In this document: positions 20,019 through 41,976 of the stretch, piece by piece
How the letters are laid out: each line of letters starts with the position of its first letter
How positions within the stretch are numbered: position 1 is the stretch's first letter
Origin: Synechococcales cyanobacterium CRU_2_2
GTDB lineage: Bacteria > Cyanobacteriota > Cyanobacteriia > PCC-9006 > JAAUQQ01
Direction of reading: 5' to 3'
NCBI GenBank assembly: GCA_012034805.1
Contig: JAAUOP010000004.1
Location: 7,843-71,842 of the forward strand
DNA length: 64,000 nt
Translations under genes and position numbers: made by a program
The notes under the pieces: model-generated
Databases searched by the model: none
The model's input: only the letters and a program-made list of their open reading frames with translations
What the model was told of the DNA's origin: nothing

Positions 20019-20567
20019 ATGGCCTTGGATTTCACCCTCGAAGCGCTCCCGGTGAAGAGCGATCAGAAAAACGATCGCTTTGGCCGTGCGGCCATCCTCA
20101 AGCCGGAGCAATTGGGGGAGTTGTTTGGGGAGTTGCGGACGGAACGCGATCGCTTCCTCTTTGGCATCTGCTATTTCACTGCTAGCCGCATCACCGAGAC
20201 GCTGCGCTTGGAGCGCTCCGATATCGTGGGAGCGACGATCACCTTTCGCAAGCAGAACACGAAGACCAAGACCACGCGCCAGGCGGCGATGCATCCGACG
20301 CTGGTGACGTTGATGGAGGAGTATGAGCTGCCGGAGTCGGGCTATCTGTTTCCGGGGCGGCATGGCCGGGGGCGGCTGACGCGGCAGGGCGCGGACTTGG
20401 TGCTGCGGGAGGCTTGTGAGCGGGTAGGGTTAGTGGGGGTGAGTACCCATAGCTTTCGGCGATCGTTTGTGACCCAGATGAAGGAGGAGGGGAAGACGCC
20501 GGTGCAGATTAAAGAGTATACGGGGCATCGGAATTTGGCGTCGCTGCTGCATTACTTCGGTGCTTGA
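20019..20567 (+). CDS. tyrosine-type recombinase/integrase (short, catalytic domain only)
   Basis: Catalytic residues are in context: ASRITE (R), STHSFRRSF (HxxR) and GHRNLASLLHY (H..Y). Confidence 0.8.
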   Translation: MALDFTLEALPVKSDQKNDRFGRAAILKPEQLGELFGELRTERDRFLFGICYFTASRITETLRLERSDIVGATITFRKQNTKTKTTRQAAMHPTLVTLMEEYELPESGYLFPGRHGRGRLTRQGADLVLREACERVGLVGVSTHSFRRSFVTQMKEEGKTPVQIKEYTGHRNLASLLHYFGA

Positions 20568-20568
20568 A

Positions 20569-20610
20569 CGATTGAAACGAGCTACAAGTCATTGCAGCTC
20601 GTTTCAATCG
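20569..20610. terminator. perfect 15-bp stem hairpin between convergent genes
   Basis: cgattgaaacgagct (20569-20583) pairs with agctcgtttcaatcg (20596-20610) across a 12-nt loop. The U-tracts are weak on both strands. Confidence 0.5.
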
Positions 20611-20627
20611 CTTTGAGTTCTACAGTT

Positions 20628-21677
20628 TTACGATGCTTTCTTCTTAAGGCGACTGGCTAACCAACCCACTCCCATGAGTCCCAAGAGGCCCGAGGGCTCA
20701 GGAACAGACTGAGGTGTGCTTGTATCGTTATCAAAGGGTGGGACATCGAACGTGTTGTCGTCTCCGTCATCATCGACAGGCGGTGGGTCACCAGAGTTGT
20801 CATCATCGACAGGCGGTGGATCAGTAGGAGGATCGAATGGGTTTAGGTTGCCAAGTAATGCCATGCCATCATTTAGACATTCTTGGAAGAAGCTTGCGAC
20901 AAAATCACCGCTAGGTAATAGGTCTCTCGAAATCTGAAAGCCAAAGAGATAAGAGTTTTCTGTTGAAGAGAAAGAATCTAAGCTGAATCCTTGCTCGTAT
21001 AGAGCTGAGTAATTTAGAAAAGAGACATCTCCTACTCGGTTTCCACCTGTAAGAATATTGGGTGTAAACTCACGACCATAACCATAGGTGGAGTCTCGAT
21101 AATCTCCCCAATAATTATCATTCCAAGCTAAATCTCCGAAGGAGACATTGTCTCCACGTCCATAGTAATTAACTGAATTATAGTAACGGCCAATATTTCC
21201 ATAACCTGCATTCTTGTCTTGGACACCGATGGCTTGAATGTTGTCGTAGACGCCGGTGCCAATATAAGGGTCGGAATCATTGCCCCATAAGAATTTGACA
21301 CCTAAAACGTTGCCATGTTTGACATTGTCTCTAAAGTTACCACCACCAGTGAAGTCAAAGAAGAAATCGCCGTATCCAATATTATTGTTCTCAACGTCCC
21401 AAGTCCCAACCCTGTCTATGTTTAGGCCGGTATGATTGAGCTTAGAGAGGATACCAACGTAGACATTCTTGCCATCGTCCTTGATGCCCATGCCGAGCAT
21501 GTCAAAGGAGTTTCGGTGATTGCCCTGCCATACGCCTAAGTCGTCTCCGACTCCATCCGCAGAATAATCCCAAGTTTGTGCTTGAGAATTGATGGCTGTA
21601 GCAGCGATTAGGGTGGGGATAGAAGCAAAGATAAAGAGACTAGATAAAAGCTTATGATTCAATTTTTTGGAGATCAT
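20628..21677 (-). CDS. PEP-CTERM sorting-domain secreted protein
   Basis: There is an N-terminal signal peptide (LLSSLFIFASIPTLIAATAINSQAQ). The C-terminus, VPEPSGLLGLMGVGWLASRLKKK, is a PEP motif plus TM helix plus basic tail. The gene is clearly AT-richer than its neighbours. Confidence 0.85.
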   Translation of the reverse strand: MISKKLNHKLLSSLFIFASIPTLIAATAINSQAQTWDYSADGVGDDLGVWQGNHRNSFDMLGMGIKDDGKNVYVGILSKLNHTGLNIDRVGTWDVENNNIGYGDFFFDFTGGGNFRDNVKHGNVLGVKFLWGNDSDPYIGTGVYDNIQAIGVQDKNAGYGNIGRYYNSVNYYGRGDNVSFGDLAWNDNYWGDYRDSTYGYGREFTPNILTGGNRVGDVSFLNYSALYEQGFSLDSFSSTENSYLFGFQISRDLLPSGDFVASFFQECLNDGMALLGNLNPFDPPTDPPPVDDDNSGDPPPVDDDGDDNTFDVPPFDNDTSTPQSVPEPSGLLGLMGVGWLASRLKKKAS

Positions 21678-22232
21678 TGATTGGCAAAGTAAAACTGAAT
21701 TGCTTCTATCTTCGTAAGAAGCGCTTGCATAGAATCATAGGATTATCTATTTTTGATGGTGACCGTAATGTCACAGATTTTTCTAAACTGAAAGCATTCT
21801 TTCTAATGATTAATACGCTGAAAACTTGTAAATAAATGGAAATGCTAAAACAAAAAATATTTTATCTATTTCGAAACTCAATAGAGTCTTTATAAAACTC
21901 TTTTGTTTGCTTTATATTGAGCCAATTATTCAGGAGAGTTACAGGTACATGGGGGCTGCTGCCGGGATCATGTCACCTTATGAGGAGAATAATAATTCAT
22001 TGAGATAAGCGGCTCGATGAGTGAGAACTTGAGGAACATTTTTGGCTTCCCACTGAGCCCCGGAGATTTTGACGCTGTTAGAAGGGGAAAAGTTGGGGCC
22101 AAAGGTTGAGCTAACGGCGGAGTGGGCTGGGGTGTTGCGGACGGTATTGCAGACGGTGTTGACGGCGAAGGATTGGGAGACGATCCTTCGGAGCTTGGCG
22201 TAGCCAATCGGCCAAGCTGTGAATTCCGAAAA

Positions 22233-22733
22233 TTATGGGGTCTTGCACGCTTTTGGTGATGCTGATGCGGTGCAAACCTCGGTGATCTTGACCTCCGGCT
22301 GGGATCTGAAATACATCCCGCCCCAGGCGATCGCCGGTGCCCCCTGACCGACATGGGCAGCATCATTGCGCCGCTGGCCGGTTGCAGAGGAATGAGAGCG
22401 CCCATTGATCGCCGCCTCAATCACAGGCCGCAGCTCATCGGTGTAGAACAATCGCCAGTAATGCTGTGAGCCTCGCCCGTCCGGCTGGCCAGCATAGGCC
22501 AGGTGCAGATTCGCGCTCATCTCCAAGTACATGCCGATGCGGGTTCGGCTCGCCAGCGAGGCTCTGAGCCTGGTGCGATTGGCCTTGCCAGTCGCCTTAG
22601 GCGTCAGTGCTTGGAGGCAGTCCAGTACGGCGGCGGTGCGCAGCTCCAAAAAGTGGGGCAGCTTGCCACCCAAGGAGACTAACCCTGGTTTGCTGAAATC
22701 CTCTGCTGGACCTGTTGCTTCTGGTGTTGCCAT
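22233..22733 (-). CDS. hypothetical protein
   Basis: 166-aa ORF divergent from parA. The frame stays open for about 80 more codons after the TAA at 22233-22235. Confidence 0.4.
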   Translation of the reverse strand: MATPEATGPAEDFSKPGLVSLGGKLPHFLELRTAAVLDCLQALTPKATGKANRTRLRASLASRTRIGMYLEMSANLHLAYAGQPDGRGSQHYWRLFYTDELRPVIEAAINGRSHSSATGQRRNDAAHVGQGAPAIAWGGMYFRSQPEVKITEVCTASASPKACKTP

Positions 22734-22821
22734 GAATCAGCGATCGCCCTAAAACCTAACTCACTCCAGCATCGTTCCCGGTTGATTTCCTGACCTATGC
22801 AGGGGGCAAGAATCGGGAGTC

Positions 22822-23069
22822 AAGGTATCTGTACTCTACACTTGCAGGTATCTGCACTCTGTACTTGTAGATATCTCGACTCCTAGATTCAAGAGGTCCA
22901 GGTACCTGTACCTTAGCGCCCTGGGAGAAGAAGCGGAGATAGAAATTCATGGAAGTCCTTGCTCAGACTGCCTGTAGCCGCTGCTTAGGGACAGCTTAGA
23001 AGTCTAGGCATCTGAAGTTGTAGATATCTGGACTCCTTGATATCTGGAAAACAATACATCTATACTCCC
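22822..23069 (+). repeat. cluster of about eight 15-17-bp boxes (A/G)(G/A)TA(T/C)CTnnACTC(C/T) upstream of parA; centromere/operator-like
   Basis: Boxes: aaggtatctgtactct (22822), caggtatctgcactct (22845), gtagatatctcgactcc (22867), ccaggtacctgtacctt (22898), ctaggcatctgaagttg (23004), gtagatatctggactcc (23020), ttgatatctggaaaac (23037), atacatctatactcc (23055). Confidence 0.6.
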
Positions 23070-23092
23070 CGATATTGAATAGGACCTAAACC

Positions 23093-23860
23093 TTGAAAAG
23101 CTGCTCAGCTATCTCCCTCTCCGGGGGCCAGGGTAAAACCACAACGATTTTTTTCACGGCGCTGCTCCTCGCCAAGAGTGGCAAAAAAGTGCTGGCGATT
23201 GACGCCGACCCCCAGGCGAACCTCACCTTCTACCTCGACCATGAGGTTCAACCCAACGAGCCCAGCTTGATGGAAGTGCTCAACAAACAGGTGAGCGTCG
23301 AAGACGGAATCTACGAGACCAAATATCCCAACCTCTATTTGATCCCAGCGGACCGGGGATTATTTAAGGTGTCGGAGTTCTTGAGCAGCAGCGGCGCTGG
23401 GGCATTCATCCTCAAGCAGCGGCTGCGCCAGGTCAAAGATATCTTCGACTTCGCCCTGATCGACGTGCAGCCTTCGCGATCGCAGATCTGTTCCACCGCT
23501 GCTGGAGCCTCGCAGTATGTGATCATCCCAACCGAAGCGAATGTGAAAGGCGTCAACTCTCTGGTGGAGACGATGAGTTTTTTGTCGGAGCAGGCGGAGC
23601 TGGAAGCTTTCGGTGGAAAGGTCTTGGGGGTGGTGCCCTTTCGCGATCGCTGGGTCGGCAACAACCAAACCACCGAAGGACGACAAAACATCGAAGCGAT
23701 GCAGGAGCTTGCCCAAGGGGCTCCGATTCTGCCTTCCATCCGTGAGTCGGAGCAATTCAAGAAGGCCATTCGTAGCGGGCAGCTCCTATCTGAGATAGGC
23801 TATCCCGACCTGCAATATCCGTTTGAGAAAATCGTTGAGGCCCTAACCCATGGCAGATAA
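23093..23860 (+). CDS. parA: ParA/Soj-family partition ATPase
   Basis: It has a deviant Walker A (SLSGGQGKTTT) and VLAIDADPQANLT. The start is a TTG. Confidence 0.85.
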   Translation: MKSCSAISLSGGQGKTTTIFFTALLLAKSGKKVLAIDADPQANLTFYLDHEVQPNEPSLMEVLNKQVSVEDGIYETKYPNLYLIPADRGLFKVSEFLSSSGAGAFILKQRLRQVKDIFDFALIDVQPSRSQICSTAAGASQYVIIPTEANVKGVNSLVETMSFLSEQAELEAFGGKVLGVVPFRDRWVGNNQTTEGRQNIEAMQELAQGAPILPSIRESEQFKKAIRSGQLLSEIGYPDLQYPFEKIVEALTHGR

Positions 23861-24452
23861 CAACGATGCCCTAGAACGCATTCGCAATCGAGCGCGTCCA
23901 GTCGTGCCTGCTCGGGATGCCTCGCTGACCTCTAGACCTGTAGATATCTCGACTCCTGTGAGTCAAGGTACCGCTAGTCATGCAGGTACCTCGACACCTG
24001 GAAACCTCAACTTAGATTTTCCGGCGGATGTCGTATTCAATGCGGAGCGGGCAAAAGGCTTGCAGAACAAGGATTCTAGGAGCCCAGGAGTCTCGATATC
24101 TGCAACTCCAGGTACCTCTAAGCAAGCCAGTCAAGGTGTCTCTAAGCAGGGGAGTCAAGGTACCTCTGCTCCTAGAATGCTAGATACCTCCACTCCAGCT
24201 ACCCCCATGGGCGAGGCACCGGAAGCTGAGGTCTTAAACACCAAGCAGAGCACGATGCGCTTGGAGAAGGACTTGAGCGAACGCCTGCAAAAGCTGTCGC
24301 GGGACAATGGTGTTTGTCGCGAGGCCTTGATCGAAGCAATGTTTGAATTTATCGAAGCCAACCCAGAAGCTGAGGCTGAGGTGCTGGAGGTCGCCCAAGG
24401 GAAAAACGAACAGCGCCAGCGATCGCCAACTACAAGCGCGCCCAGTCGATGA
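23850..24452 (+). CDS. partition partner protein with C-terminal ribbon-helix-helix-like domain (ParG-like)
   Basis: ATG 23850 overlaps the parA stop by 11 nt. The N-terminal half is rich in S/T/P/G/Q. The C-terminal MRLEKDLSERLQKLSRDNGVCREALIEAMFEFI is RHH-like. Confidence 0.6.
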   Translation: MADNNDALERIRNRARPVVPARDASLTSRPVDISTPVSQGTASHAGTSTPGNLNLDFPADVVFNAERAKGLQNKDSRSPGVSISATPGTSKQASQGVSKQGSQGTSAPRMLDTSTPATPMGEAPEAEVLNTKQSTMRLEKDLSERLQKLSRDNGVCREALIEAMFEFIEANPEAEAEVLEVAQGKNEQRQRSPTTSAPSR

Positions 24453-24599
24453 TGGAGCGCTTTTTGCAAAAGTGACGTTTTGGTATCGCGACTTAAAGGT
24501 TTCCAGTTGTGCAGGTATCTGGACTTCTAGGTACCTAGACTGGCCAGCCAGGCTAACCAACCACATTGATTTATCACATCGATTTAGAGGTGCAGCACC

Positions 24600-25016
24600 A
24601 TGGGGTTTCTTGACTACTGGCGTAAGCGCGAGCCAGAAGAGGTGCAGGGGAATTTGCTCAATCCCGAAGAGCAGGCGGATGCGATCGTGGACCGAGCGGA
24701 GCCGACTCGGCTGGCCTCGTACCATCGGCTCCATGGGGAGCTAAAAGCCCGAGGTGCGATGGACCAGACTCACCAAGCCATAAACCATCTACAGAATATT
24801 GAGATGCTTGATGATGACTATCGCAAGCTGTATGAGGAACTGGGCATCACGCTAGGACAGCGGGCCAAACTCCCCAAGGAAGCCAAGGAGGCGTTGATGG
24901 TGGGTGACATCGCCGCGTTCCACCAGATCATGAAGGACGACGCCCAGGGACACCAGGCCCTCATCGAAAGCAGCTACAAAGGTTTCAAGCAGGCGCGGAA
25001 GTTGTTTCCTTGGTAG
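24600..25016 (+). CDS. hypothetical protein
   Basis: 138-aa helical ORF in the same direction as the par genes. Confidence 0.45.
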   Translation: MGFLDYWRKREPEEVQGNLLNPEEQADAIVDRAEPTRLASYHRLHGELKARGAMDQTHQAINHLQNIEMLDDDYRKLYEELGITLGQRAKLPKEAKEALMVGDIAAFHQIMKDDAQGHQALIESSYKGFKQARKLFPW

Positions 25017-25032
25017 CAGCAGAGCTAAAATT

Positions 25033-25518
25033 GTGGCTATGAAGATCCAAGCGCTGCGGCAGCAAACCTACATGAGCTACGAAGGCCTGTGCATGAGCAC
25101 GGGGGCTTATTGTGGTGCGCCCTACGCCTGGGAAGTGAGCAGCGAAGACTACGATCGCCATCCCGTCACCAACAAAACCTTCAAAGACGCCATCCGCCAT
25201 GAGTTTGGCGATCTGCGCCTGAAGGAGACCTGGCGGCAAGCAGCAATTCACTACGCGGCTCGCTCCGTTGCCAAGGGAGCATTGGAGCCTTACCAGCTCG
25301 TCTGCTACATGGCGCTGCCCCAGCACATCTCTTCGCCGGTGCGCGATACCTATGGTCCAGAGGTGATCGAGGCGTTGCTGAGCTATCCAGAAGCAGCAGC
25401 GAGGATTCGGGCTGGACTGGAGCAGCTGGTCCAGGAGCTGCCCGAGGTGGCTGAAGAATTTGTGCGGACCTATGAAGGGGCGATCGCGCCATCGCCCTTC
25501 CAGCCGGTGGCAGCTTAG
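25033..25518 (+). CDS. hypothetical protein (possible N-terminal HTH)
   Basis: 161-aa ORF. IQALRQQTYMSYEGLCMSTG is weakly XRE-HTH-like. Confidence 0.4.
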   Translation: MAMKIQALRQQTYMSYEGLCMSTGAYCGAPYAWEVSSEDYDRHPVTNKTFKDAIRHEFGDLRLKETWRQAAIHYAARSVAKGALEPYQLVCYMALPQHISSPVRDTYGPEVIEALLSYPEAAARIRAGLEQLVQELPEVAEEFVRTYEGAIAPSPFQPVAA

Positions 25519-25553
25519 CGCTGACAGTTGCTGCGGCGATCGCCGCAGCGTTG

Positions 25554-25916
25554 CTAATCTTGGGCTTCGAGTTGATAGAAGCGCAGGGTGGGATGTTCGG
25601 CGATGACGCGCCAGGAGTAGTGCTGGGGGGCTGGGAACATGCGATCGCCACTGCGATAGCTAAATACGGGTTGTTGATGCTTAAGGCCTTCTAGGGCTTC
25701 GGCCTCGATGCCGGGGTAGGGATTGCGATTGTCATATAGGCAGAGGTGGGCCGTACTTCGATAGTCCGCTGCCAGCAGACTGGCCATGAGCCATTCCATC
25801 AGGGGCTGCATTTCTGTAACGCTGAGCCCGCTGTGGGAGTCGCCGTAGGTGTAGATGTTGGGCGACTGGGGTTGGGGGCGGAGCGCATTGAGCAGGCGTT
25901 GGAGCAGCTTAAACAA
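25554..25916 (-). CDS. hypothetical protein
   Basis: 120-aa ORF, convergent with the previous gene. Confidence 0.4.
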   Translation of the reverse strand: MFKLLQRLLNALRPQPQSPNIYTYGDSHSGLSVTEMQPLMEWLMASLLAADYRSTAHLCLYDNRNPYPGIEAEALEGLKHQQPVFSYRSGDRMFPAPQHYSWRVIAEHPTLRFYQLEAQD

Positions 25917-26116
25917 GGGCTTTGGGGGGGCGGGTTGAGGTGAGCTGCTACTGCATTCAGCGCTTTTGCTTGGAGCACAGGAAAATCTCAGCGAATGACT
26001 ATCAACCCTTCAGATAGGGCTCAGAGGGGCCTCAGGGAGGCGGTGCATTCTGTAGACATCGAAGAAAACACGGCGGACCAAACAACCGCCATTCACCATC
26101 TACGGAGTTCAAGATC

Positions 26117-26383
26117 ATGAAATTCATCACCCGCACCGTTTCCGCTGTTGCTTTCACCGCTACCCTGTTCGCTTCCGCTAGCGCTTTCGCCCTGACCCCT
26201 TTCGATGCGGCTACCCTGGCCCAGCGCGGTCAGCTCGAAGGCATCTCTGGCTATCAGGCGCTCCGGTCTGACCTTCTGAACCGCAGTGTCACCGGCGAGG
26301 ACATCCTCGAAGCCGCTGGCCTGGAAGTGAATGCTGCCGATGCCCACTTTGTTGAGAGCATCCTGCGCGATCGCAGCAACTAG
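26117..26383 (+). CDS. small secreted hypothetical protein
   Basis: 88 aa with a clear signal peptide (AVAFTATLFASASAFA). A terminator lies downstream. Confidence 0.55.
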   Translation: MKFITRTVSAVAFTATLFASASAFALTPFDAATLAQRGQLEGISGYQALRSDLLNRSVTGEDILEAAGLEVNAADAHFVESILRDRSN

Positions 26384-26482
26384 ATAACCCAGCTTCCCAA
26401 GTTTGACTCCGATTGGGAGTGGCCTGATAACCCGCTCCCTTTCTTGAGACCCAGAGACATTGAATGAATCTTTCCTACCCCG

Positions 26483-26512
26483 AGCAGGTGGCCAGCTGGT
26501 CACCTGCTTTTT
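26483..26512 (+). terminator. rho-independent terminator
   Basis: agcaggtg (26483-26490) pairs with cacctgct (26501-26508) and is followed by TTTT. Confidence 0.7.
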
Positions 26513-26758
26513 GCTGAGAGATGGTGAGGCGAGTTGCGATCGCCAGGGGCCATTGCTAAGGCTGAGCTGCCCTGATCGGGCAAATAAGGTGCGCTATCGC
26601 GCCGCTATTACCGTCGTTCCCCCCTCGCATTATTCGCCCCCTCGGGGGGCGGCTCCAGCGGTCGCCCGCTGGCCGGTGCGGCTCTGGCAGCTCGTCTGGG
26701 TCGGGTTCGTCGCCTGCCTTCTTCGGCTTCTGCAGTTTAGTGGGTCTGGTTCGGTTCT

Positions 26759-26781
26759 GGGGGCTTCGGCCCCCTTTTTTT
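26759..26781 (+). terminator. rho-independent terminator with a UUCG tetraloop, no recognisable gene upstream
   Basis: gggggc-ttcg-gccccc (26759-26774) is followed by T7 (26775-26781). Confidence 0.7.
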
Positions 26782-26984
26782 GTGGCGATTGTAGTATTTC
26801 CAAGCAATGCTGTCTGCCTCGCTTTGGGGGCCAACCCGTTGCGAATGCGAAAACTTGAGCCGCTGGCGCGAAAACTGCCCCTGTCCGCTGCGCTCCCATC
26901 GGCAGCAAATCTCATCCGTCGGAGTGTGCTCCGCTGCGCTCCGCCCACCCCGCAATCTCCCCCCTCCCGTCCCCCCCAGGGGGG

Positions 26985-27167
26985 AATGTCACTCCCCTGT
27001 TTTATCTGCGTTAAATTAACCGTCTCGATTTGCTTCAAACCCTCTACGGTCAAATCACGGTTCCTGCTGCCGTCCAACGGGAGTTGTAAGCAGGCCAAGC
27101 TCAGGGACTCAGCGTCCCGCCTGTTGAGACATTGGGCTGGGTAACGCTGGAGGCGGCGAAATTCTGA
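26985..27167 (+). pseudogene. second, decayed DUF3368 (PIN-like) gene remnant
   Basis: It reads NVTPLFYLR-stop-INRLDLLQTLYGQITVPAAVQREL-stop-AGQAQGLSVPPVETLGWVTLEAAKF. In-frame TAA codons lie at 27012 and 27087. The remnant ends 22 nt before the GTCAA array. Confidence 0.5.
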
Positions 27168-27188
27168 GCGCTCCCGTTCAAGATGCCA

Positions 27189-27715
27189 TCAACAGCGTCA
27201 ACCCGGCGTCAAGCTCAAATCAAGCTGGTGTCGAAACTCCGTCAAGCTGCCGTCAAACGAGCGTCAAAAACTGTCAAATCTGAATCAAGCTGCCGTCAAA
27301 TGGGCGTCAGGCGCAAATCAAGCCGGTGTCAAAACGGCGTCAAAAAGCGTCAATCCGCCGTCAAGCTCAAGTCAAGCCGGTGTCGAAACTCCATCAAGCT
27401 GCCGTCAAACGAGTGTCAAAAACTGTCAAATCTGAATCAAGCTGCCGTCAAACGGGCGTCAAGCGCAAATCAAGCCGGTGTCAAAACGGTGTCAAAAAGC
27501 GTCAATCCGCCGTCAAGCTCAAGTCAAGCTGGTGTCAAAGCTCGGTCAAGCCGCCATCAAAACGGCGTCAATCAAGAATCAAGCCAGCATCAAAAAGCAT
27601 CAACCTCACCTCAAAGGTGAATCAAGGGGTTCTCAAACGGGCGTCAACGCTCTGTCACCCTGGCGTCAAAATTTGTCCCGTCTGCGTCAAACTGGCATCC
27701 ACCTACCGTCAAAAG
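27189..27715 (+). repeat. array of about 47 direct 11-bp units (7-nt core (G/C)(C/T)GTCAA plus 4-nt spacer) with a 152-bp higher-order repeat
   Basis: Hand-traced TCAA cores lie at 27198, 27209, 27220, 27231, 27242, 27253, 27264, 27274, 27285 and on to 27709. Spacing is 11 bp, occasionally 10. 27209-27360 and 27361-27512 differ at 7 positions by my count. Confidence 0.9.
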
Positions 27716-27721
27716 CGGAGT

Positions 27722-27976
27722 ATGAATTTGCGCAATGACCGCTTGGAGGGTAACCCAGCCACGCAAACTCCAACCGACCTGCTGCGCGAAGCCCTGGAGC
27801 TAAGCAAAGCAAAAGCCATCGCCCAGTTCAACCACCTGCCTGTCTTCAGTTGCTCTCTCCGGTCACGCTGGATTCAGCTATCAGGGACTAGAACTGTCGT
27901 CAGCAACTGTGTCTTGCATCAAGTCAAGTCCCGTATCCAGCAATATGTCCATTACTCGGTCAAGAGCCGTGTCTAG
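27722..27976 (+). CDS. possible short ORF between the two arrays
   Basis: ATG 27722 opens MNLRNDRLEGNPATQTPTDLLREALELSKAKAIAQFNHLP, which looks protein-like. The 3' half runs into the 12-bp repeats and may not be genuine. Confidence 0.25.
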   Translation: MNLRNDRLEGNPATQTPTDLLREALELSKAKAIAQFNHLPVFSCSLRSRWIQLSGTRTVVSNCVLHQVKSRIQQYVHYSVKSRV

Positions 27977-28175
27977 AACTATTTCCAGAACTGCATCCGG
28001 TAACCTATCCATTGCTGTGTCCAGCAACTAGGTCAAGTGCTGTGTCCAGGACTATGTCCAGTGGCGTTTCAAGTACCAGCTCCAGAACTGCGTCCAGTGG
28101 CGTGTTCCGCAACTGGTTCCAGCACCGGGTCCGGTAACCCTCTCGGGACCCACCTCCACCAGCCTCCCAGCCCGC
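27886..28175 (+). repeat. array of about 24 direct 12-bp units with a (G)TCCAG / TCAAG core
   Basis: Example units: gtgtccagcaac, gtgtccaggact, atgtccagtggc, agctccagaact, gcgtccagtggc, ggttccagcacc, gggtccggtaac. Occasional units are 13 nt. Confidence 0.75.
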
Positions 28176-28275
28176 CACGAGAAATTGGGGAGTCCAGGGG
28201 GCTAGTAGCGGCGGGCAAGCAATGCCCAAAATGGAACATTTTTCTAACCCAGAGCTTCAAACCCATGTAATGCTC

Positions 28276-29597
28276 CTGATTGACTGACAAAAGTCTAGTC
28301 AGGAGTGAATTGAACGGTAACGGACTGAAACTGCAATCGAAAGGACTTGTTGTGATGCTGCCCCCGAGAAGCCATAGCAGGCTCAGGGTCGTGGTTGGAG
28401 TGAAATTGGACATTACGAATCAGAAGCCAGCCATCAAGGAGGGCGGAGCGAATCCAATCAACGCCAAGGCGGAAATAGCTGTTGCCACGAAACCAATGGA
28501 CATCGACCCATCGACGTTTCCCCGATTCGACCACCTCAACGCCCTGGGCAGTGACGTAGAGCGTAGCGACAGCCAGAATGAAGCACAACCTTGAAAGGTC
28601 ACAGACCGAGCGAATCTCAGACTTTTGCAGATTCCAGCCGCTGGACTGGTCATCGAGGAAGGTCTCTTCAATATCAAACCTGAGGGCGTATTCCCTGAAG
28701 GTCTGTAGGGTGGTGGGTTCATCACTCACCACCGCCCAGAGTTCGCCGTTGATGCTGTTGCATCCGAAGATGACATGAACCGGGCCATACCACTGACCTT
28801 TATGGAGCTTGATGTTGTGGAAGCAGCGGACTTCACCGCGCCCAAGGTGGAAGGCTTTCGGCTGACACCAACCGCCTTGAGAACGCCAGAGCCAGGTGCA
28901 GGCTTTGATGCGAATGCGATAGTGCCAACCCAGTTTACGGATTGCACTCATGGCATCAGTGTGAATGAACCCGCGATCCGCCAGCAGAATTACCTTGGCT
29001 TGGGGGAGATAGCTCGCGGTGTGTTCGAGCATCTCGTGGTACTCGCTGAACGAAACCGAAGCGCTGCCATGTTTGAGCACGCGCCAGGCCACGGGCAAAG
29101 CTCGACCTCGGTGGACCACCGCCAAGCGAATCAGGCAGTACTCGTCCCAAAACAGCGTGGTATCCAGACTCAGATATAGGCAACGGTCTGTCCAATCGGC
29201 CAGGGCAGCTTGGATGATGGGTTTGTACAACCGATGAACGTTGATACGGCTATTGCCCAGCCAGCGGCGAATGCGTCGTTGGCGGCTTTCGGCATATTGT
29301 CCTCGGCAGGGCATGTACTTGGCCCATTTGGTGAGGCTAACTTCGCCGGTTTGAATCAGGGCCGCAACCATCCATAAGCAGGTACAAAGATGCGTCAGAT
29401 GCGCCCAGGGTAGATCTTGACCCAGCCAGGCTTTCAGGGCATCGTAGAGGCGGGAGTTTTTTTCACAGCGTTTTTTTGAGTTTGAGTGGTATCTGATTCT
29501 AGAACGCTGGCTCCCACTTCTTCATTCTATGAACGCCAGACTTATCTCGCTGCAAAGGTTTCACCGTGTTAACTCACATCTTTTGGCAGTCAATCAG
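28276..29597 (-). mobile_element. IS4/IS701-like insertion sequence (about 1.3 kb)
   Basis: Terminal inverted repeats are ctgattgactgacaaaag (28276-28293) and, as reverse complement of 29580-29597, ctgattgactgccaaaag (17/18 match). They enclose a DDE transposase. No target-site duplication was seen. Confidence 0.75.
28295..29371 (-). CDS. IS4-family DDE transposase
   Basis: 358 aa with LSLDTTLFWDEY, ILLADRGF and FDIEETFLDDQSSGWNLQKS. The N-terminus probably extends upstream (..RLYDALKAWLGQDLPWAHLTHLCTCLW) and may join a short GTG ORF across the T6 run at 29458-29463. Confidence 0.8.
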   Translation of the reverse strand: MVAALIQTGEVSLTKWAKYMPCRGQYAESRQRRIRRWLGNSRINVHRLYKPIIQAALADWTDRCLYLSLDTTLFWDEYCLIRLAVVHRGRALPVAWRVLKHGSASVSFSEYHEMLEHTASYLPQAKVILLADRGFIHTDAMSAIRKLGWHYRIRIKACTWLWRSQGGWCQPKAFHLGRGEVRCFHNIKLHKGQWYGPVHVIFGCNSINGELWAVVSDEPTTLQTFREYALRFDIEETFLDDQSSGWNLQKSEIRSVCDLSRLCFILAVATLYVTAQGVEVVESGKRRWVDVHWFRGNSYFRLGVDWIRSALLDGWLLIRNVQFHSNHDPEPAMASRGQHHNKSFRLQFQSVTVQFTPD

Positions 29598-35250: not shown

Positions 35251-35967
35251 TTAAGATTCGGGCTGGAATTCAGGCGATTTGGATTCAGGCGATTTGGATT
35301 CAGGCGATTTGGATTCAGGCGATTTGGATTCGGGGGTGGGGGATTCGGGAGTAGGCAATTCGGGATTTGGAGGGTCGGGAGTTGGGGGGTCGGGGAGTTT
35401 TAGTTCTGCGGTGTATTTCCACTCCTCCAAAGGCCGGTTAATCGCGGGTTCAAAGTCTATGGAAACGAGGCGTACTGATAGCGTTGGGGCGTTGGGGGGG
35501 GTGTCGGTGAGCGCATAGAAGGCAGAGCGATCGAAATTGGCCTGACCCAAAACCAGCACGTGCTCCTTGCCGTTGGCCAGGGTGACATTGACGATCGCCG
35601 GTTGATCAAAGCCAAATTCGGCCTTGCGATCGCCCGCCACCTCCAGGGTCTGCTGCACATTGCCCGTGGCCAGTAAGTTGAGCAAAAACGCCACTGCCCC
35701 ATCACTGGCCTGAATGGTCTCGGGCTTCGTCATCCGCCAGTCGGACTCTCCTTCCGGCGGCGAGTCGCGCTTTTCGAAGGCCAGGGTCAGGTCGGGTCGC
35801 TGGATCTGAATGGCCTGAATCTCCGCTTCCTCAAATGCAAATAAATTCCCATCCGCGACATCGGCCTGCTCTGGCTTCGGAGCCAAAATCACCTCCGAGA
35901 CAAAGAATGCACCCATGCCCAGGGTTGCGACCAAAACCAGCAGAAATGTATTGCGTTGAACTTTCAT
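35251..35967 (-). CDS. DUF4340-like protein
   Basis: ATG 35967 is preceded by AAGGGA, and the N-terminus is a signal anchor (MKVQRNTFLLVLVATLGMGAFF). It lies downstream of the GldG-like gene, as in the common operon. The C-terminus has SPESK repeats. Confidence 0.6.
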   Translation of the reverse strand: MKVQRNTFLLVLVATLGMGAFFVSEVILAPKPEQADVADGNLFAFEEAEIQAIQIQRPDLTLAFEKRDSPPEGESDWRMTKPETIQASDGAVAFLLNLLATGNVQQTLEVAGDRKAEFGFDQPAIVNVTLANGKEHVLVLGQANFDRSAFYALTDTPPNAPTLSVRLVSIDFEPAINRPLEEWKYTAELKLPDPPTPDPPNPELPTPESPTPESKSPESKSPESKSPESKSPEFQPES

Positions 35968-39728: not shown

Positions 39729-40460
39729 CTAGCCAGAGCACTCGGGCTGACACCAAGACGAATGAGGCCTAGGCGGCTGGGGCCGAGTTGGGGCGATCGC
39801 CGCCCGATCATAGTTTTCGAGTGCCTCGGCCTCGCGACCCAAGGCCTGCGAAGCCACTCCGCGCTTCACCCAGGCTTTGCTGGCCATCGGGTCGAGGCGC
39901 AAGGCGCGATCGTAGCTGGCGATCGCCGCCTCAAATTGACCCAACTGATGCAACACCAAACCGCGACCGTACCAGTCTTCACTGTAGTCTGCTCGAATGC
40001 CCAGGGCCGCATCATAATTTTCCAAGGCTTGGGCGTAGCGACCGAGGTGATAGAGCGCCATGGCCCGACCGACAAAGGCTTCAGGGTAGCCAGAGCGCAA
40101 TTGGAGGGCCGTCGTGTAGCTGGCGATCGCGGCCCTCAGGTGATCGGAAACCGCCTCAGCGAAATTGCGTTGGCCCGCAACCGCCGGATGCGCCCCAATC
40201 CGCTCCGCCGAATTCCACAAGATGCGAGTCTCAAGCGTGCGAGTCTCAAGCGTGCGAATCTCAAGCGTGCGAGTCTCAAGTGCCAAGCCTTGAAGCGCGT
40301 TTCCCCGGCGCACCCAGAGGTCGGCATCATCTAGCTTGAGGGCAAGGGCGCAGTCGTATTGAGCGATCGCCTCGGCAAAGCAACCCTGTCGAAACCAGGT
40401 GTTACCCAATTGCTGTGCGCCTGATGGCGTTTGCTCAAGCGGAGAGATGCATTTGGACAT
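39729..40460 (-). CDS. tetratricopeptide-repeat protein
   Basis: There are several TPR units (AIASYDRALRLDP, ALENYDAALGIRADY). A 15-bp tandem repeat at 40224-40283 encodes ETRTLEIRTLETRTLETR. Confidence 0.8.
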   Translation of the reverse strand: MSKCISPLEQTPSGAQQLGNTWFRQGCFAEAIAQYDCALALKLDDADLWVRRGNALQGLALETRTLEIRTLETRTLETRILWNSAERIGAHPAVAGQRNFAEAVSDHLRAAIASYTTALQLRSGYPEAFVGRAMALYHLGRYAQALENYDAALGIRADYSEDWYGRGLVLHQLGQFEAAIASYDRALRLDPMASKAWVKRGVASQALGREAEALENYDRAAIAPTRPQPPRPHSSWCQPECSG

Positions 40461-40626: not shown

Positions 40627-41976
40627 CTAGAGATATCCCATGGGATCAACGGGCTCACCGTTCTGCCGCACCTCGAAATGTAAATGAGGCCCCGTGGACA
40701 ACCCTGTCGAGCCCGAGCGTGAGACAACCTGCCCCGGCTGGACGGCTTGGCCAGGGCTGACGGTCAGCTCATTGTTGTGGGCATAGAGCGTGGTGATGCC
40801 GTCGCCGTGGTCAAGAATCACGGCATTGCCGTAGCCGCCATACCAGTCCGCATAAATGACAACACCGCCCGCCGCCGCACCAATCGAAGTTTCGTAGTCC
40901 ACCGCAAAGTCAATGCCACTGTGGAAGCGCTCGGTACCCAAAACCGGATGCACGCGCCAGCCAAAAGGACTACTGATGGGTGCAGCCACCGGCATCCGCA
41001 AGGGACCGCCGCCCAAGAAGCCCGCATTCACACTCCGCTTGGCAATAAGTTCCTGAATCAACTGGGTCAAGTTTTCAGAGTCTCGCTGGAGTTGAATCTG
41101 GGAGGCTTCGAGGGCAGCGCGGTTATCCTTAAGCCGTTGTATGAGCACTGCTTGTTGTTTGCTTTTTTGCTCAAGGCCAGATTTTTGCATCAGCTGTCGC
41201 TGCCGCAGCAGGGCGATACCATTTTTTTGTTCTTCGATCTGCTCTTGTTGTTGTTGTAACTGGATGGCTTGCTGGGTAAGGTTGCTGAGACGGGTGCGAT
41301 CGCGCTCGTACAGCTTCTTCAGATAATACCGTCGTTGCAAGAACGCCCCGATCGAGTCACTTTCGAGTAACACCGCCCAGCCCTGGAGGCGCTGCTGACG
41401 CTGAAGAACTTGCAACCGGGCAACGGTGGAGTTGCGTTGCTTTTGGTAGGTCTGCTGGGACTGAGCAAGTCTGCCTTCTAGGCCTTTGAGATATTGCGCT
41501 GCCACATCAAGGCGCGCTTGGCTGTCAGCGAGGGCACCTTCGGTTTGGAGCAGGGTGTCCCGGAGATCCGTCAGGTCGCCGAGGGCCGATTGCTCAGCCT
41601 GTTTGATCCGTTTGGTGGCTTGCTCAACAGCTTGCTGACGCTGTTCAACTTGTTGCTGGCGCTGTTCAACCTGTTGTTGCTGCTGCTCGAGCTGTTGTTG
41701 TTCCTGTTCGCGCTGTTGTTGCTGTTGCTCAAAGTCCTGAAGGACAGTTTGGGCAATACTGCTTTGGGCAATGCTGCTTTGGGCAATGCTGCTTTGGGCG
41801 AAGGTTGGGGAGGGTGCTGCGATCGCCGGACATGGATCGCCCAGCAGGCACAAGAGGCCGAGAAGGTGGATGAGGGCGATCGCCACCTTGACTCTGGAAA
41901 ACAGTCGAAGCGCATCACGAGGGCACGGCTGGATTAGGATGAGGGAAGAGCGAAGGAAACTGCCGACGAAGGCCAT
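40627..41976 (-). CDS. M23-family metallopeptidase with Q-rich coiled coil (EnvC-like)
   Basis: The C-terminal LytM domain carries HSGIDFA..GNAVILDHG..TLYAHN..GPHLHFEV. Confidence 0.85.
   Translation of the reverse strand: MAFVGSFLRSSLILIQPCPRDALRLFSRVKVAIALIHLLGLLCLLGDPCPAIAAPSPTFAQSSIAQSSIAQSSIAQTVLQDFEQQQQQREQEQQQLEQQQQQVEQRQQQVEQRQQAVEQATKRIKQAEQSALGDLTDLRDTLLQTEGALADSQARLDVAAQYLKGLEGRLAQSQQTYQKQRNSTVARLQVLQRQQRLQGWAVLLESDSIGAFLQRRYYLKKLYERDRTRLSNLTQQAIQLQQQQEQIEEQKNGIALLRQRQLMQKSGLEQKSKQQAVLIQRLKDNRAALEASQIQLQRDSENLTQLIQELIAKRSVNAGFLGGGPLRMPVAAPISSPFGWRVHPVLGTERFHSGIDFAVDYETSIGAAAGGVVIYADWYGGYGNAVILDHGDGITTLYAHNNELTVSPGQAVQPGQVVSRSGSTGLSTGPHLHFEVRQNGEPVDPMGYL

What the first reader, a model, noticed from the sequence alone, without database searches (positions are those of the whole stretch)
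22822..24542. ACTC-containing 15-17-bp boxes bracket parA and its RHH partner and also lie inside the partner's coding sequence
At least 18 copies of (A/G)(G/A)TA(T/C)CTnnACTC(C/T)-like boxes are present.
- About eight lie upstream of parA (22822-23069).
- About seven lie inside the N-terminal half of the ParG-like ORF (23940-24196).
- Two or three lie just downstream (24478-24542).

The 17-mer gtagatatctcgactcc is identical at 22867 and 23940.

Inside the ORF the boxes translate to the S/T/P/G-rich tail (DISTP, GTSTP, PGTSKQASQGVSKQGSQGTSAP, LDTSTP). The same DNA may therefore serve both as binding-site repeats and as coding sequence for a disordered tail.

As I recall, ParG of TP228 (an RHH protein paired with a ParA-type ATPase) recognises arrays of degenerate ACTC tetramer boxes. 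An ACTC core here is suggestive of the same mode.
Basis: partly seen in the sequence, partly recalled or inferred. Interest (0 to 1): 0.65.

Follow-up and report, generated by a model that had tools for sequence, protein, structure and literature searches.

The report
Centromere boxes inside partition-protein gene
A short palindromic DNA box (AGRTAYCT) is packed around a cyanobacterial plasmid-type partition operon and also inside the gene of the DNA-binding partner protein. It is most likely that protein's own binding site, written into its coding sequence, and this layout recurs across the whole family, including a crystallised protein reported not to bind DNA.

Summary
The core is an 8-bp palindrome, AGRTAYCT. 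There are 13 exact copies in the 64-kb window against 1.6 expected, and all lie in 22823-24536. Six one-mismatch copies lie in the same stretch.

The genes are not a ParF/ParG pair. ParA is a close homologue of the Cyanothece PCC 7424 plasmid 'McdA-like' ATPase (6NOO). It has no signature lysine, and K152 stands in for it. The partner is a homologue of 'McdB-like' 6NOY, with a disordered tail, a ribbon-helix-helix (RHH) and a coiled coil.

In 59 related loci, exact boxes are dense upstream of parA (6.6/kb) and inside the partner gene (4.1/kb). The rest of those loci holds 0.1/kb. Intragenic boxes occur in all three reading frames. They exceed synonymous-codon shuffles about tenfold (113 observed against 11.8 expected).

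Box sequence co-varies with the RHH beta-strand in four specificity groups, and each group keeps the dual upstream-plus-intragenic position.

The 'ACTC' is only a flank specific to this lineage, so the ParG tetramer-box analogy fails in detail.

Best reading: these are operator and centromere sites of an RHH centromere-binding protein, partly embedded in its own tail-coding DNA. Binding itself is inferred, not shown. This is a new variant of type Ib partition.

The parts
22815..22913 (.). Distal upstream box cluster U1. It holds four exact AGRTAYCT boxes (22823, 22846, 22869, 22900). The first three sit on 23-bp direct repeats.
   Evidence: (TRF period 23). Homology with the 80%-identical locus L001 begins at this cluster.
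22998..23067 (.). Promoter-proximal box cluster U2, the putative operator. Boxes sit at 16-bp spacing: 23006 (1 mismatch, perfect in sister strains), 23022 (exact), 23038 (1 mismatch) and 23054 (2 mismatches). The cluster overlaps a promoter-like TTGATA-18-TATACT at 23037-23066.
   Evidence: 23009 C>T in runs X3/X4 makes the 23006 box perfect. In the family, upstream boxes concentrate at -120 to -60 from the parA start.
23093..23860 (+). parA-type ATPase gene (255 aa, TTG start). Walker A reads SGGQGKTT with no signature lysine. K152 is the equivalent of McdA-like K151.
   Evidence: Pfam AAA_31 at 1e-35. PDB 6NOO/6NON/6NOP at E 6e-76.. PMC6582323.
23437..23444 (.). Isolated exact box inside parA. 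It is probably a chance copy and not part of the system.
   Evidence: It reads AGACATCT in L001/L002 and AGACGTCT in run X3. Family parA genes carry only 0.23 boxes/kb.
23850..24452 (+). Partner gene (200 aa). It encodes a conserved N-terminal ParA-contact peptide (aa 5-26), a disordered S/T/P/G-rich tail (about aa 27-125), an RHH (strand TKQSTMRLE, aa 131-139, plus two helices) and a C-terminal helix. The natural end is lost through a 1-nt deletion after 24418.
   Evidence: 6NOY, E 3e-6; family profile against 6NOY, 5e-23; AF2; RHH_1 in 34 of 120 homologues.
23925..24003 (.). Intragenic box cluster I-A, at codons 31-47. Boxes at 23942 (exact), 23966 (1 mismatch) and 23984 (exact). This is the family-conserved intragenic position.
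   Evidence: 56 of 104 family intragenic boxes lie in codons 20-39.
24086..24195 (.). Intragenic box cluster I-B, at codons 82-113. Boxes at 24094 (1 mismatch, different frame), 24110, 24134 (1 mismatch), 24158 and 24182. It sits on 24-bp (8-codon) tandem units. The window has one unit more than L001.
   Evidence: (TRF period 24).
24478..24542 (.). Downstream box cluster D. Boxes at 24481 (2 mismatches), 24513 and 24529 (both exact, 16 bp apart).
   Evidence: It is conserved in L001/L002. Homology with L001 ends just after it. A downstream cluster is not a general family feature (0.51/kb).

Best explanation
**What it is**

The boxes are the cognate DNA sites of the 200-aa partner protein. That protein is the centromere-binding and autoregulatory protein of a type Ib-like partition cassette. 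The cassette belongs to the cyanobacterial plasmid family known in the literature as 'McdA-like/McdB-like'.

**How it most likely works**
- Each RHH dimer reads one 8-bp palindrome, AGRTAYCT. Good boxes alternate with degenerate ones in an 8/16-bp register. The extended form is GTCRAGRTAYCTYGAC, and in this lineage the flank reads nGACTCCT. That flank is the source of the 'ACTC'.
- The promoter-proximal cluster overlaps the -35 and -10 hexamers and acts as the operator.
- The distal upstream, intragenic and downstream clusters together form the partition site.
- The C-terminal coiled coil links RHH dimers, so that separated clusters can be bridged into one complex.
- The conserved N-terminal peptide then stimulates the nucleoid-bound ParA.
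- The disordered tail tolerates almost any sequence. Its DNA has therefore been used, and expanded in 24-bp units, to carry boxes.

**Shown**
- Enrichment of the boxes in the window.
- Constraint at the DNA level, beyond what the encoded protein requires.
- Dual location conserved across the family.
- Co-variation of the box with the RHH beta-strand.
- Homology to 6NOO and 6NOY.

**Inferred**
- Centromere and operator function.
- Bridging of clusters.
For: **Enrichment**
- 13 exact boxes against 1.6 expected, all within 1.7 kb.

**Family conservation**
- In 59 loci with both genes, exact boxes per kb are: upstream 300 bp 6.6, partner CDS 4.06, parA 0.23, rest of the locus 0.10.
- Positions are conserved: -120 to -60 from the parA start, and codons 20-39 of the partner.
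- On four complete plasmids the par locus holds 2 of 5, 4 of 6, 8 of 11 and 8 of 9 of all exact boxes. No other cluster exists on them.

**DNA-level, not peptide-level, selection**
- Intragenic boxes occupy frames 2, 1 and 0 (64, 45 and 4 boxes).
- 113 are observed against 11.8 expected from an own-codon shuffle, and 5.7 from parA codon usage.
- 58 of 81 [DG][IT]S tripeptides are spelled exactly AGRTAYCT, and the preceding codon ends in A in 67 of 81.

**Co-variation of protein and site**
- TKQ[ST]TxRLE goes with AGRTAYCT. The 11 TKRSTFRL[ED] loci use AGACAT boxes instead, again both upstream and intragenic.
- TVRNTIR(I/L)x loci (Cyanothece 6NOY, Microcystis) share GTCAAGAC / TGACATCAAGACT between the upstream region and the gene.
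- VRRTIRLE loci share a 14-16-mer, AATTTAGTCATT.

**Protein evidence**
- PDB matches: 6NOO at 6e-76 and 6NOY at 3e-6, with the family profile reaching 5e-23.
- RHH_1 is hit by 34 of 120 homologues, best E 4.7e-8.
- 6NOY is described as strand-helix-helix plus a coiled coil, with helices 1-2 of neighbouring subunits interdigitating (PMC6582323).
- The AF2 model has a disordered tail over aa 20-130.

**Other support**
- Tail length correlates with box number (rho 0.56).
- A promoter-like site is overlapped by the U2 cluster.
- MacCready et al. argued that these pairs are plasmid partition systems (PMC7182216).
Against: - No binding data exist. Schumacher et al. report that the homologue 6NOY 'does not bind DNA', although it was tested only on a non-specific oligonucleotide.
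- For the window protein alone the RHH assignment is weak: RHH_1 at E 0.047, and Foldseek CopG hits at E about 5.
- The loci are related to one another, so the counts are not independent events. The Q/R co-variation may be a single event.
- In this window the partner gene carries a 1-nt deletion that removes the conserved C-terminal 18 aa.
- The locus lies among chromosomal-type genes, between an integrase fragment and an IS element. This copy may therefore be a decaying, integrated remnant.
- Which cluster, if any, provides centromere activity cannot be told from sequence.
Confidence: 0.7

Rival explanations
1. The boxes are operator sites only, used for transcriptional autoregulation or as a roadblock. 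The true centromere lies elsewhere, for example the 42-copy RTCAA array with 11-bp period at 27188-27712.
For: - U2 overlaps a promoter-like site.
- The RTCAA array has centromere- or iteron-like periodicity.
- Many boxes carry a GTCA left flank that resembles the array unit.
Against: - No RTCAA-type array occurs in the flanks of any related locus, though those flanks reach only about 2.5 kb.
- The array has no match in the plasmid collection.
- Four complete plasmids have no other cluster of the box motif, and on two of them the intragenic array is the largest cluster on the replicon.
- In TP228 the operator and the centromere are built of the same boxes.
Confidence: 0.15
2. The intragenic boxes are a by-product of selection on, or duplication of, a peptide repeat (D/G-I/T-S...) in the tail. 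They have no function as DNA.
For: - In the window all five exact intragenic boxes are in one frame, on 24-bp in-frame units.
- The peptide DxSTSR is fairly conserved in the family consensus.
Against: - The same motif, with the same flanks, lies in non-coding DNA upstream.
- Across the family the boxes occur in all three frames.
- They exceed synonymous shuffles by about tenfold.
- Codon choice at [DG][IT]S and the preceding third base are fixed to spell the box.
- When the upstream motif changes, as in the R-type, VRN-type and VRR-type groups, the intragenic motif changes with it.
Confidence: 0.04
3. The boxes are bound by a different factor, such as a host regulator, a recombinase/resolvase of the mobile element, or a restriction-modification enzyme (GGTACC and GATATC are classical palindromes).
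For: - Integrase and recombinase genes are frequent neighbours.
- The box cores are type II-like palindromes.
Against: - The motif follows the par genes, not the neighbours, which differ between loci.
- It co-varies with the partner's beta-strand.
- GRTAYC is not depleted or otherwise unusual in the rest of the window (98 strand-counts in all, 34 of them in the region).
- The hybrid form GGTATC is not a palindrome.
Confidence: 0.06
4. The boxes after codon 45 regulate an internal promoter that would produce a short, tail-less RHH isoform.
For: A promoter-like TCGACA-16-TAGATT lies at 23991-24018, right after the box at 23984.
Against: - The match is 9 of 12 positions, within the number expected by chance (2 found, 1.1 expected).
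- No transcript data were examined.
- Nothing here shows conservation of this site in relatives.
Confidence: 0.05

Closest known systems
Cyanothece (Gloeothece citriformis) PCC 7424 plasmid pP742402 'McdA-like/McdB-like' pair (PDB 6NOO/6NON/6NOP and 6NOY; Schumacher et al. 2019)
   Same: - It is homologous on both genes: ParA at E 6e-76, partner profile at 5e-23.
- Walker A has serine in place of the signature lysine, with a distal lysine (K151/K152) instead.
- The partner has the same layout: N-terminal ParA-binding peptide, disordered tail, strand-helix-helix, coiled coil.
- The genes are adjacent and plasmid-borne.
   Different: - It was published as a carboxysome-positioning homologue with a 'unique fold' that 'does not bind DNA', and no DNA site was described.
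- Here a candidate cognate site is identified. For 6NOY itself a different box is found, both upstream of its parA and at codon 30 of its own gene: TGACATCAAGACT / AGTCTTGAcaTCAAGACT.
TP228 ParF-ParG-parH/OF (type Ib partition)
   Same: - A small ParA without an HTH is paired with an RHH protein that has a flexible N-terminal tail contacting the ATPase.
- Arrays of short degenerate boxes serve as both operator and centromere.
- There is a distal array plus a promoter-proximal array (PMC3130281).
   Different: - There is no sequence homology to ParG.
- ParF has the signature lysine.
- ParG lacks the C-terminal coiled coil.
- The TP228 boxes are ACTC tetramers with 4-bp AT-rich spacers, all upstream. 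Here the box is an 8-bp palindrome, with arrays also inside the binding protein's gene and downstream of it.
MetJ repressor and met-box operators (from my own knowledge: consensus AGACGTCT, 2-5 tandem 8-bp boxes, one RHH dimer per box)
   Same: - The box is an 8-bp palindrome with the same outer bases (AGA....TCT).
- Boxes are arranged in tandem 8-bp register, with good and degenerate copies.
- Recognition is by an RHH.
   Different: - MetJ is a metabolic repressor that needs a co-repressor, not a partition protein.
- The central bases differ (CG against TA).
- The resemblance is in site architecture only, and it was not tested here.
pB171 par2 (ParA/ParB-RHH with parC1 upstream and parC2 downstream; from my own knowledge)
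   Same: It is a type Ib cassette bracketed by repeat arrays on both sides, and the upstream array doubles as operator.
   Different: - No array lies inside the coding sequence.
- Its repeats are 6 bp long.
- Its proteins are unrelated in sequence.
Chromosomal parS inside spo0J/parB (Bacillus subtilis; Lin & Grossman 1998, cited in PMC6582323)
   Same: A centromere site lies inside the gene of the protein that binds it.
   Different: - That case is a single 16-bp site in an HTH-ParB gene.
- Here an expandable array sits in the disordered-tail coding DNA of an RHH protein, and it co-evolves with an upstream operator.

Membership tests
Cyanobacterial plasmid 'McdA-like/McdB-like' partition pair (Pfam PF26392 'McdB'; PDB 6NOY/6NOO) | The partner is homologous to 6NOY / PF26392. 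| tested here: met
   phmmer gives E 3e-6 over aa 126-190. The family profile matches full-length 6NOY at 5.3e-23. The precomputed Pfam assignment is PF26392:McdB.
Cyanobacterial plasmid 'McdA-like/McdB-like' partition pair (Pfam PF26392 'McdB'; PDB 6NOY/6NOO) | The adjacent ParA lacks the Walker-A signature lysine and has the distal lysine (K151). | tested here: met
   Walker A reads SGGQGKTT with S10. K152 sits in VKGVNS, aligned to TKGVNS of 6NOO. E 6e-76.
Type Ib plasmid partition system | A small ParA without an N-terminal HTH, followed by a small RHH centromere-binding protein. | tested here: met
   ParA is 255 aa and hits only AAA_31/CbiA. For the partner, RHH_1 is at E 0.047 in the window protein but is hit by 34 of 120 homologues (best 4.7e-8). 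RHH_4, RepB-RCR_reg and CopG_antitoxin are also hit. 6NOY has strand-helix-helix topology.
Type Ib plasmid partition system | A cis-acting repeat array next to the genes that confers plasmid stability. | not testable with these tools
   The arrays are present and conserved. Stabilisation activity needs an experiment.
Type Ib plasmid partition system | A deviant Walker A with the signature lysine (KGGxxGK[ST]). | tested here: not met
   Serine stands at the signature position. In the solved homologue a distal lysine substitutes for it (PMC6582323).
ParG (TP228) family / ParG recognition mode | Sequence homology to ParG. | tested here: not met
   There is no ParG family hit in Pfam at E <= 0.1 for the window protein, or among the top families for 120 homologues. 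No ParG chain appears among the PDB hits at E <= 10.
ParG (TP228) family / ParG recognition mode | Sites are ACTC tetramers separated by 4-bp AT-rich spacers. | tested here: not met
   The conserved core is AGRTAYCT. ACTC flanks 31% of half-sites in the window clade but 2.3% elsewhere, and the spacers are not AT-rich. The TP228 layout is taken from PMC3130281.
True McdAB carboxysome-positioning system | McdB features (invariant C-terminal tryptophan) and genomic linkage to carboxysome genes, as set out by MacCready et al. | tested here: not met
   The C-terminus is ...SAPSR, or ...MMERFLQK in the undeleted frame, with no tryptophan. The neighbouring genes are an integrase fragment, a PEP-CTERM protein, unknowns and an IS element, and no carboxysome gene was found among the ORFs scanned. 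PMC7182216 states that this plasmid family is 'not true McdAB'.

The most novel reading that the evidence does not exclude
In this whole family of ParA-type partition systems, from which type 1 carboxysome McdAB is thought to derive, the centromere/operator may be physically embedded in the disordered-tail coding DNA of the centromere-binding protein's own gene. It would expand and contract with the tail in 24-bp units. It would also co-evolve with the upstream operator and with the RHH beta-strand, through at least four specificity switches. On this reading the crystallised 'McdB-like' protein 6NOY, published as a unique fold that does not bind DNA, is a coiled-coil-linked RHH centromere-binding protein with a predictable cognate site.
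Probability: 0.55. Interest if true: 0.78.

Novelty: new variant of a known kind. Interest (0 to 1): 0.7.

Why it matters
1. It supplies the missing cis element for a widespread cyanobacterial plasmid partition family. ParA homologues occur on at least 51 plasmids in PLSDB. The partner family has 313 clusters at 50% identity. Both proteins have been crystallised, but their cargo-binding mode was unknown.

2. It predicts that 6NOY is an overlooked RHH DNA-binding protein, and it names oligonucleotides with which to test this.

3. It gives a clean natural example of dual-use sequence. An array of protein-binding sites is written into an intrinsically disordered coding region, and there is clear evidence that selection acts on the DNA motif rather than the peptide. 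This bears on how disordered tails evolve.

4. It informs the proposed origin of type 1 McdAB (carboxysome positioning) from a plasmid partition system. The ancestor's adaptor would have been a sequence-specific DNA binder.

Tried and rejected
- **ParG homology.** No Pfam or PDB hit to ParG was found.
- **ACTC as the conserved core.** Rejected by the family half-site profile.
- **Peptide-repeat artefact.** Rejected by reading frames, synonymous shuffles and codon spelling.
- **Near-identical plasmids.** Megablast of 20 kb of the window against the plasmid collection found nothing. Only distant matches to the par genes were found.
- **Structure route to the RHH.**
  - The AF2 monomer gave a confident C-terminal helical domain but modelled the strand as helix.
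  - Foldseek gave only non-significant hits, the top six to CopG at E about 5 with rmsd 0.9 A over 30 columns. This is weak support at best.
  - A dimer could not be modelled with the tools available.
- **RTCAA array as a shared family feature.** It was not found in relatives' flanks and has no plasmid match. The flanks reach only about 2.5 kb, so this is not exhaustive.
- **NtcA-type (GTA-N8-TAC) and HIP1 explanations.** Considered by eye and rejected. The spacing does not fit, and HIP1 (GCGATCGC) is genome-wide whereas the boxes are local.
- **Literature.** Searches found no paper linking McdB-like proteins to an RHH fold or to a centromere.
- **More distant clades.** In loci with beta-strands such as RRHSAIVLD, RLAVHLE and PRRNIRLE (L077-L080, L082), sharing of upstream motifs with the gene was weak or absent. 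The dual location may therefore not extend to the whole superfamily.
Full report
**1. Observation**

The sequence at 22700-24600 contains a dense set of related boxes. Their common core is the 8-bp palindromic class AGRTAYCT (AGGTACCT, AGATATCT and the hybrid AGGTATCT/AGATACCT). It occurs exactly 13 times in the 64-kb window, and every copy lies between 22823 and 24536. Dinucleotide-preserving shuffles give 1.61 +/- 1.21, and none of 100 reaches 13. Six further copies with one mismatch lie in the same 1.7 kb.

The 17-mer identity at 22867 and 23940 is confirmed and extends to 19 nt. An unsupervised repeat finder and TRF recover the same families, with 23-bp units upstream and 24-bp units in the ORF.

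**2. The genes**

ORF 23093-23860 is a ParA/MinD-superfamily ATPase (AAA_31, 1e-35). Its nearest solved relatives, at E 6e-76, are 6NOO/6NON/6NOP, the plasmid-encoded 'McdA-like' protein of Cyanothece PCC 7424. It shares that protein's hallmark. The Walker A motif is SGGQGKTT, with serine in place of the signature lysine, and K152 aligns with the distal lysine K151 that completes the ATP sandwich dimer (PMC6582323).

The partner (23850-24452) gives only a marginal RHH_1 hit on its own (E 0.047, aa 137-166). Its C-terminal 65 residues match 6NOY, the Cyanothece 'McdB-like' protein (E 3e-6). A profile of 120 homologues matches 6NOY end to end (5.3e-23). All 120 listed homologues carry the precomputed Pfam family PF26392, which is named 'McdB'.

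Among the 120 homologues, 34 hit RHH_1 (best 4.7e-8), 14 hit RHH_4, 7 hit RepB-RCR_reg and 5 hit CopG_antitoxin. NCBI names some of them 'ribbon-helix-helix protein, CopG family'.

Schumacher et al. describe 6NOY as strand (77-83), helix 1, helix 2 and a long coiled-coil helix 3. Residues 1-76 are disordered, and helices 1-2 of one subunit interdigitate with those of a neighbour. That is the topology and the dimer mode of an RHH, although the paper calls it a unique fold.

An AF2 model of the window protein has a short N-terminal helix, no confident structure from about residue 20 to 130, and a confident helical C-terminal domain. Foldseek's top six hits are CopG, but they are not significant.

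MacCready et al. argued that these plasmid pairs are partition systems and 'not true McdAB', and that type 1 McdAB probably arose from them. No DNA site has been described. Schumacher's 'no DNA binding' result used a non-specific oligonucleotide. I found no paper linking the family to an RHH or to a centromere.

**3. Comparative test**

I collected loci from three sources:
- two metagenome contigs with 80%-identical partners (L001, L002);
- PLSDB plasmids;
- 62 genome contigs.

In the 59 loci where both genes could be delimited, the density of exact boxes is as follows:

| Sector | Boxes per kb |
|---|---|
| 300 bp upstream of parA | 6.6 |
| Partner CDS | 4.06 |
| parA | 0.23 |
| 200 bp downstream | 0.51 |
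| Rest of the locus | 0.10 |

The positions are conserved. Upstream boxes sit at -120 to -60 from the parA start, usually 16 bp apart. Intragenic boxes sit mainly in codons 20-39, just after the conserved N-terminal peptide.

On four complete plasmids the par locus holds 2 of 5, 4 of 6, 8 of 11 and 8 of 9 of all exact boxes, and no second cluster exists. In Calothrix NIES-22 plasmid6 and Nostoc MS1 pNSMS104 the intragenic array is the largest cluster on the replicon.

The downstream cluster is specific to the window's lineage and a few others.

**4. DNA motif or peptide?**

Several results point to the DNA motif.
- Across the family, intragenic boxes occur in all three frames (64, 45 and 4 boxes). 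Two frames often occur within one gene, for example GAT-ATC-TCG (D-I-S) at codon 29 and AAG-GTA-TCT (K-V-S) at codon 40.
- Keeping each protein sequence and reshuffling its own synonymous codons gives 11.8 boxes against 113 observed. Drawing codons from parA usage gives 5.7.
- For the window alone the figures are 5 observed against 0.33 and 0.03, with 0 of 5000 trials reaching 5.
- Of 81 [DG][IT]S tripeptides in non-identical partners, 58 are spelled exactly AGRTAYCT, and the preceding codon ends in A in 67.
- The window uses GTA, GCA, CCA, CAA and CTA before the box codons.
- Tail length correlates with box number (Spearman 0.56, p 5e-5, not corrected for phylogeny).
- The window differs from L001 by one extra 24-bp unit that carries a box.

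The DNA motif itself is therefore under selection, and the tail has grown by adding box-bearing units.

**5. Co-variation with the protein**

| Beta-strand of the RHH | Box | Where found |
|---|---|---|
| TKQ[ST]TxRLE | AGRTAYCT | upstream and intragenic |
| TKRSTFRL[ED] (11 loci, Nodosilinea-type) | AGACAT(A); 0-1 AGRTAYCT | 2-5 upstream, 3-8 in the gene |
| TVRNTIRIE (the crystallised Cyanothece pair, L007; its translation equals 6NOY) | AGTCTAGACT and AGTCTTGAcaTCAAGACT | upstream of parA; the 13-mer TGACATCAAGACT recurs at codon 30 of the partner gene |
| TVRNTIRLD (Microcystis NIES-2481) | GTCAAGAC | upstream and at codons 49, 57, 85 and 155 |
| VRRTIRLE (Nostoc ATCC 53789, Leptolyngbya boryana) | AATTTAGTCATT, shared as a 14-mer and a 16-mer | upstream and at codons 32-39 |

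Four specificity groups thus keep the same dual position while the motif changes. The Gln-to-Arg change at the outward-facing strand position goes with a T-to-C change in the box (A to G on the other strand). That fits the usual Gln-A and Arg-G preferences; this point is inference.

In still more distant clades (L077-L080, L082) the pattern is weak or absent.

**6. Site architecture**

Half-site profiles show AYCT followed by nGAyaTCT and then AGAt. The arrays are therefore tandem 8-bp units in which good palindromes alternate with degenerate ones. Many sites extend to GTCRAGRTAYCTYGAC.

ACTC is present in 31% of half-sites in this clade but in 2.3% elsewhere.

It does not describe these sites. 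The architecture is closer to MetJ met-box arrays (AGACGTCT in tandem; my own knowledge).

**7. Function**

Cluster U2 (23006, 23022, 23038 and 23054, 16 bp apart) overlaps a promoter-like TTGATA-18-TATACT at 23037-23066, 27 bp upstream of the parA start. This is typical of type Ib autoregulation.

The best-supported model has four steps:
1. RHH dimers coat the boxes.
2. U2 acts as the operator.
3. U1, the intragenic arrays and D provide additional loading sites. The coiled coil can bridge these into one partition complex.
4. The N-terminal peptide activates ParA on the nucleoid.

Binding, centromere activity and bridging are inferred.

**8. Caveats for this copy**

The window comes from a stromatolite metagenome. 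It carries chromosomal-type genes: AcrB, a glycosyltransferase, MenA/MenC/MenE-like genes and CheA/MCP.

The par locus sits between an integrase fragment (20019-20567) and a DDE transposase (28295-29371), so it may be an integrated plasmid remnant.

Relative to L001 and L002, the partner gene lacks one G after 24418, in a HIP1 site. This replaces the conserved AIANYKRAQSMMERFLQK with RSPTTSAPSR. A contig of run X3 has the G, and contigs of run X2 break exactly there, so the population is polymorphic.

Strain variants do not disrupt any exact box outside parA, and one variant turns the 23006 box into a perfect one. The box inside parA (23437) is not conserved.

**9. Verdict**

It is wrong in its specifics: the ACTC core and the ParG recognition mode are not supported. 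This is a new variant of type Ib partition, with a directly testable re-reading of a published crystal structure.

Noticed in passing
window 27188-27712: An array of 42 RTCAA units, all on one strand, with 11-bp spacing (25 gaps of 11 bp and 7 of 22 bp). It is organised in 76/152-bp super-repeats and overlaps only implausible ORFs. It resembles iterons or a centromere. It was not seen in relatives' flanks and has no match in the plasmid collection.
   Followed up: partly
window 24418-24419: A one-base deletion (a missing G) in a HIP1 site, CAG(G)CGATCGC, near the 3' end of the partner gene. It replaces the conserved last 18 residues. The G is present in L001, L002 and a contig of run X3. Contigs of run X2 break exactly here, so the site is polymorphic in the stromatolite population.
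   Followed up: yes
window 20019-29371: The par locus lies in an island among chromosomal-type genes (AcrB, MenA/C/E-like, CheA/MCP). The island is bounded by a truncated tyrosine-integrase ORF (20019-20567) and a DDE transposase (28295-29371). It includes a low-GC kilobase (21000-21999, GC 0.40) that overlaps much of a PEP-CTERM protein gene (20628-21677). It is possibly an integrated plasmid remnant.
   Followed up: partly
L010 (Nostoc sp. CENA543 pCENA543a) 1046-1408: Four repeats, 113 bp apart, each carry a pair of exact boxes 16 bp apart. They lie 600-950 bp upstream of parA and begin 35 bp after a 49-aa RHH-domain gene (862-1011). This is a dedicated extra array on that plasmid.
   Followed up: partly
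L007 (Gloeothece citriformis PCC 7424 pP742402) 1918-1974 and 2869-2881: The crystallised 6NOY/6NOO locus has palindromes AGTCTAGACT and AGTCTTGAcaTCAAGACT just upstream of parA. The 13-mer TGACATCAAGACT recurs at codon 30 of the McdB-like gene. These are candidate cognate sites for a protein that was reported not to bind DNA.
   Followed up: partly
window 24600-25016: A 138-aa ORF immediately downstream of the D cluster. It is conserved at the same position in L001 and L002, and it has no significant Pfam or NCBIfam match.
   Followed up: no
window 23427-23454: An 18-nt-arm palindrome, GCCAGGTCAAAGATATCT / AGATATCTTCGACTTCGC, centred on the lone box inside parA. The box core is not conserved in L001, L002 or run X3, so it is probably fortuitous.
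   Followed up: partly
window 35268-35331, 40223-40280, 41748-41799, 62946-63021: Several near-perfect 15-bp tandem repeats (4-5 copies, 95-100% matches) lie elsewhere in the window. They appear unrelated to the par locus.
   Followed up: no
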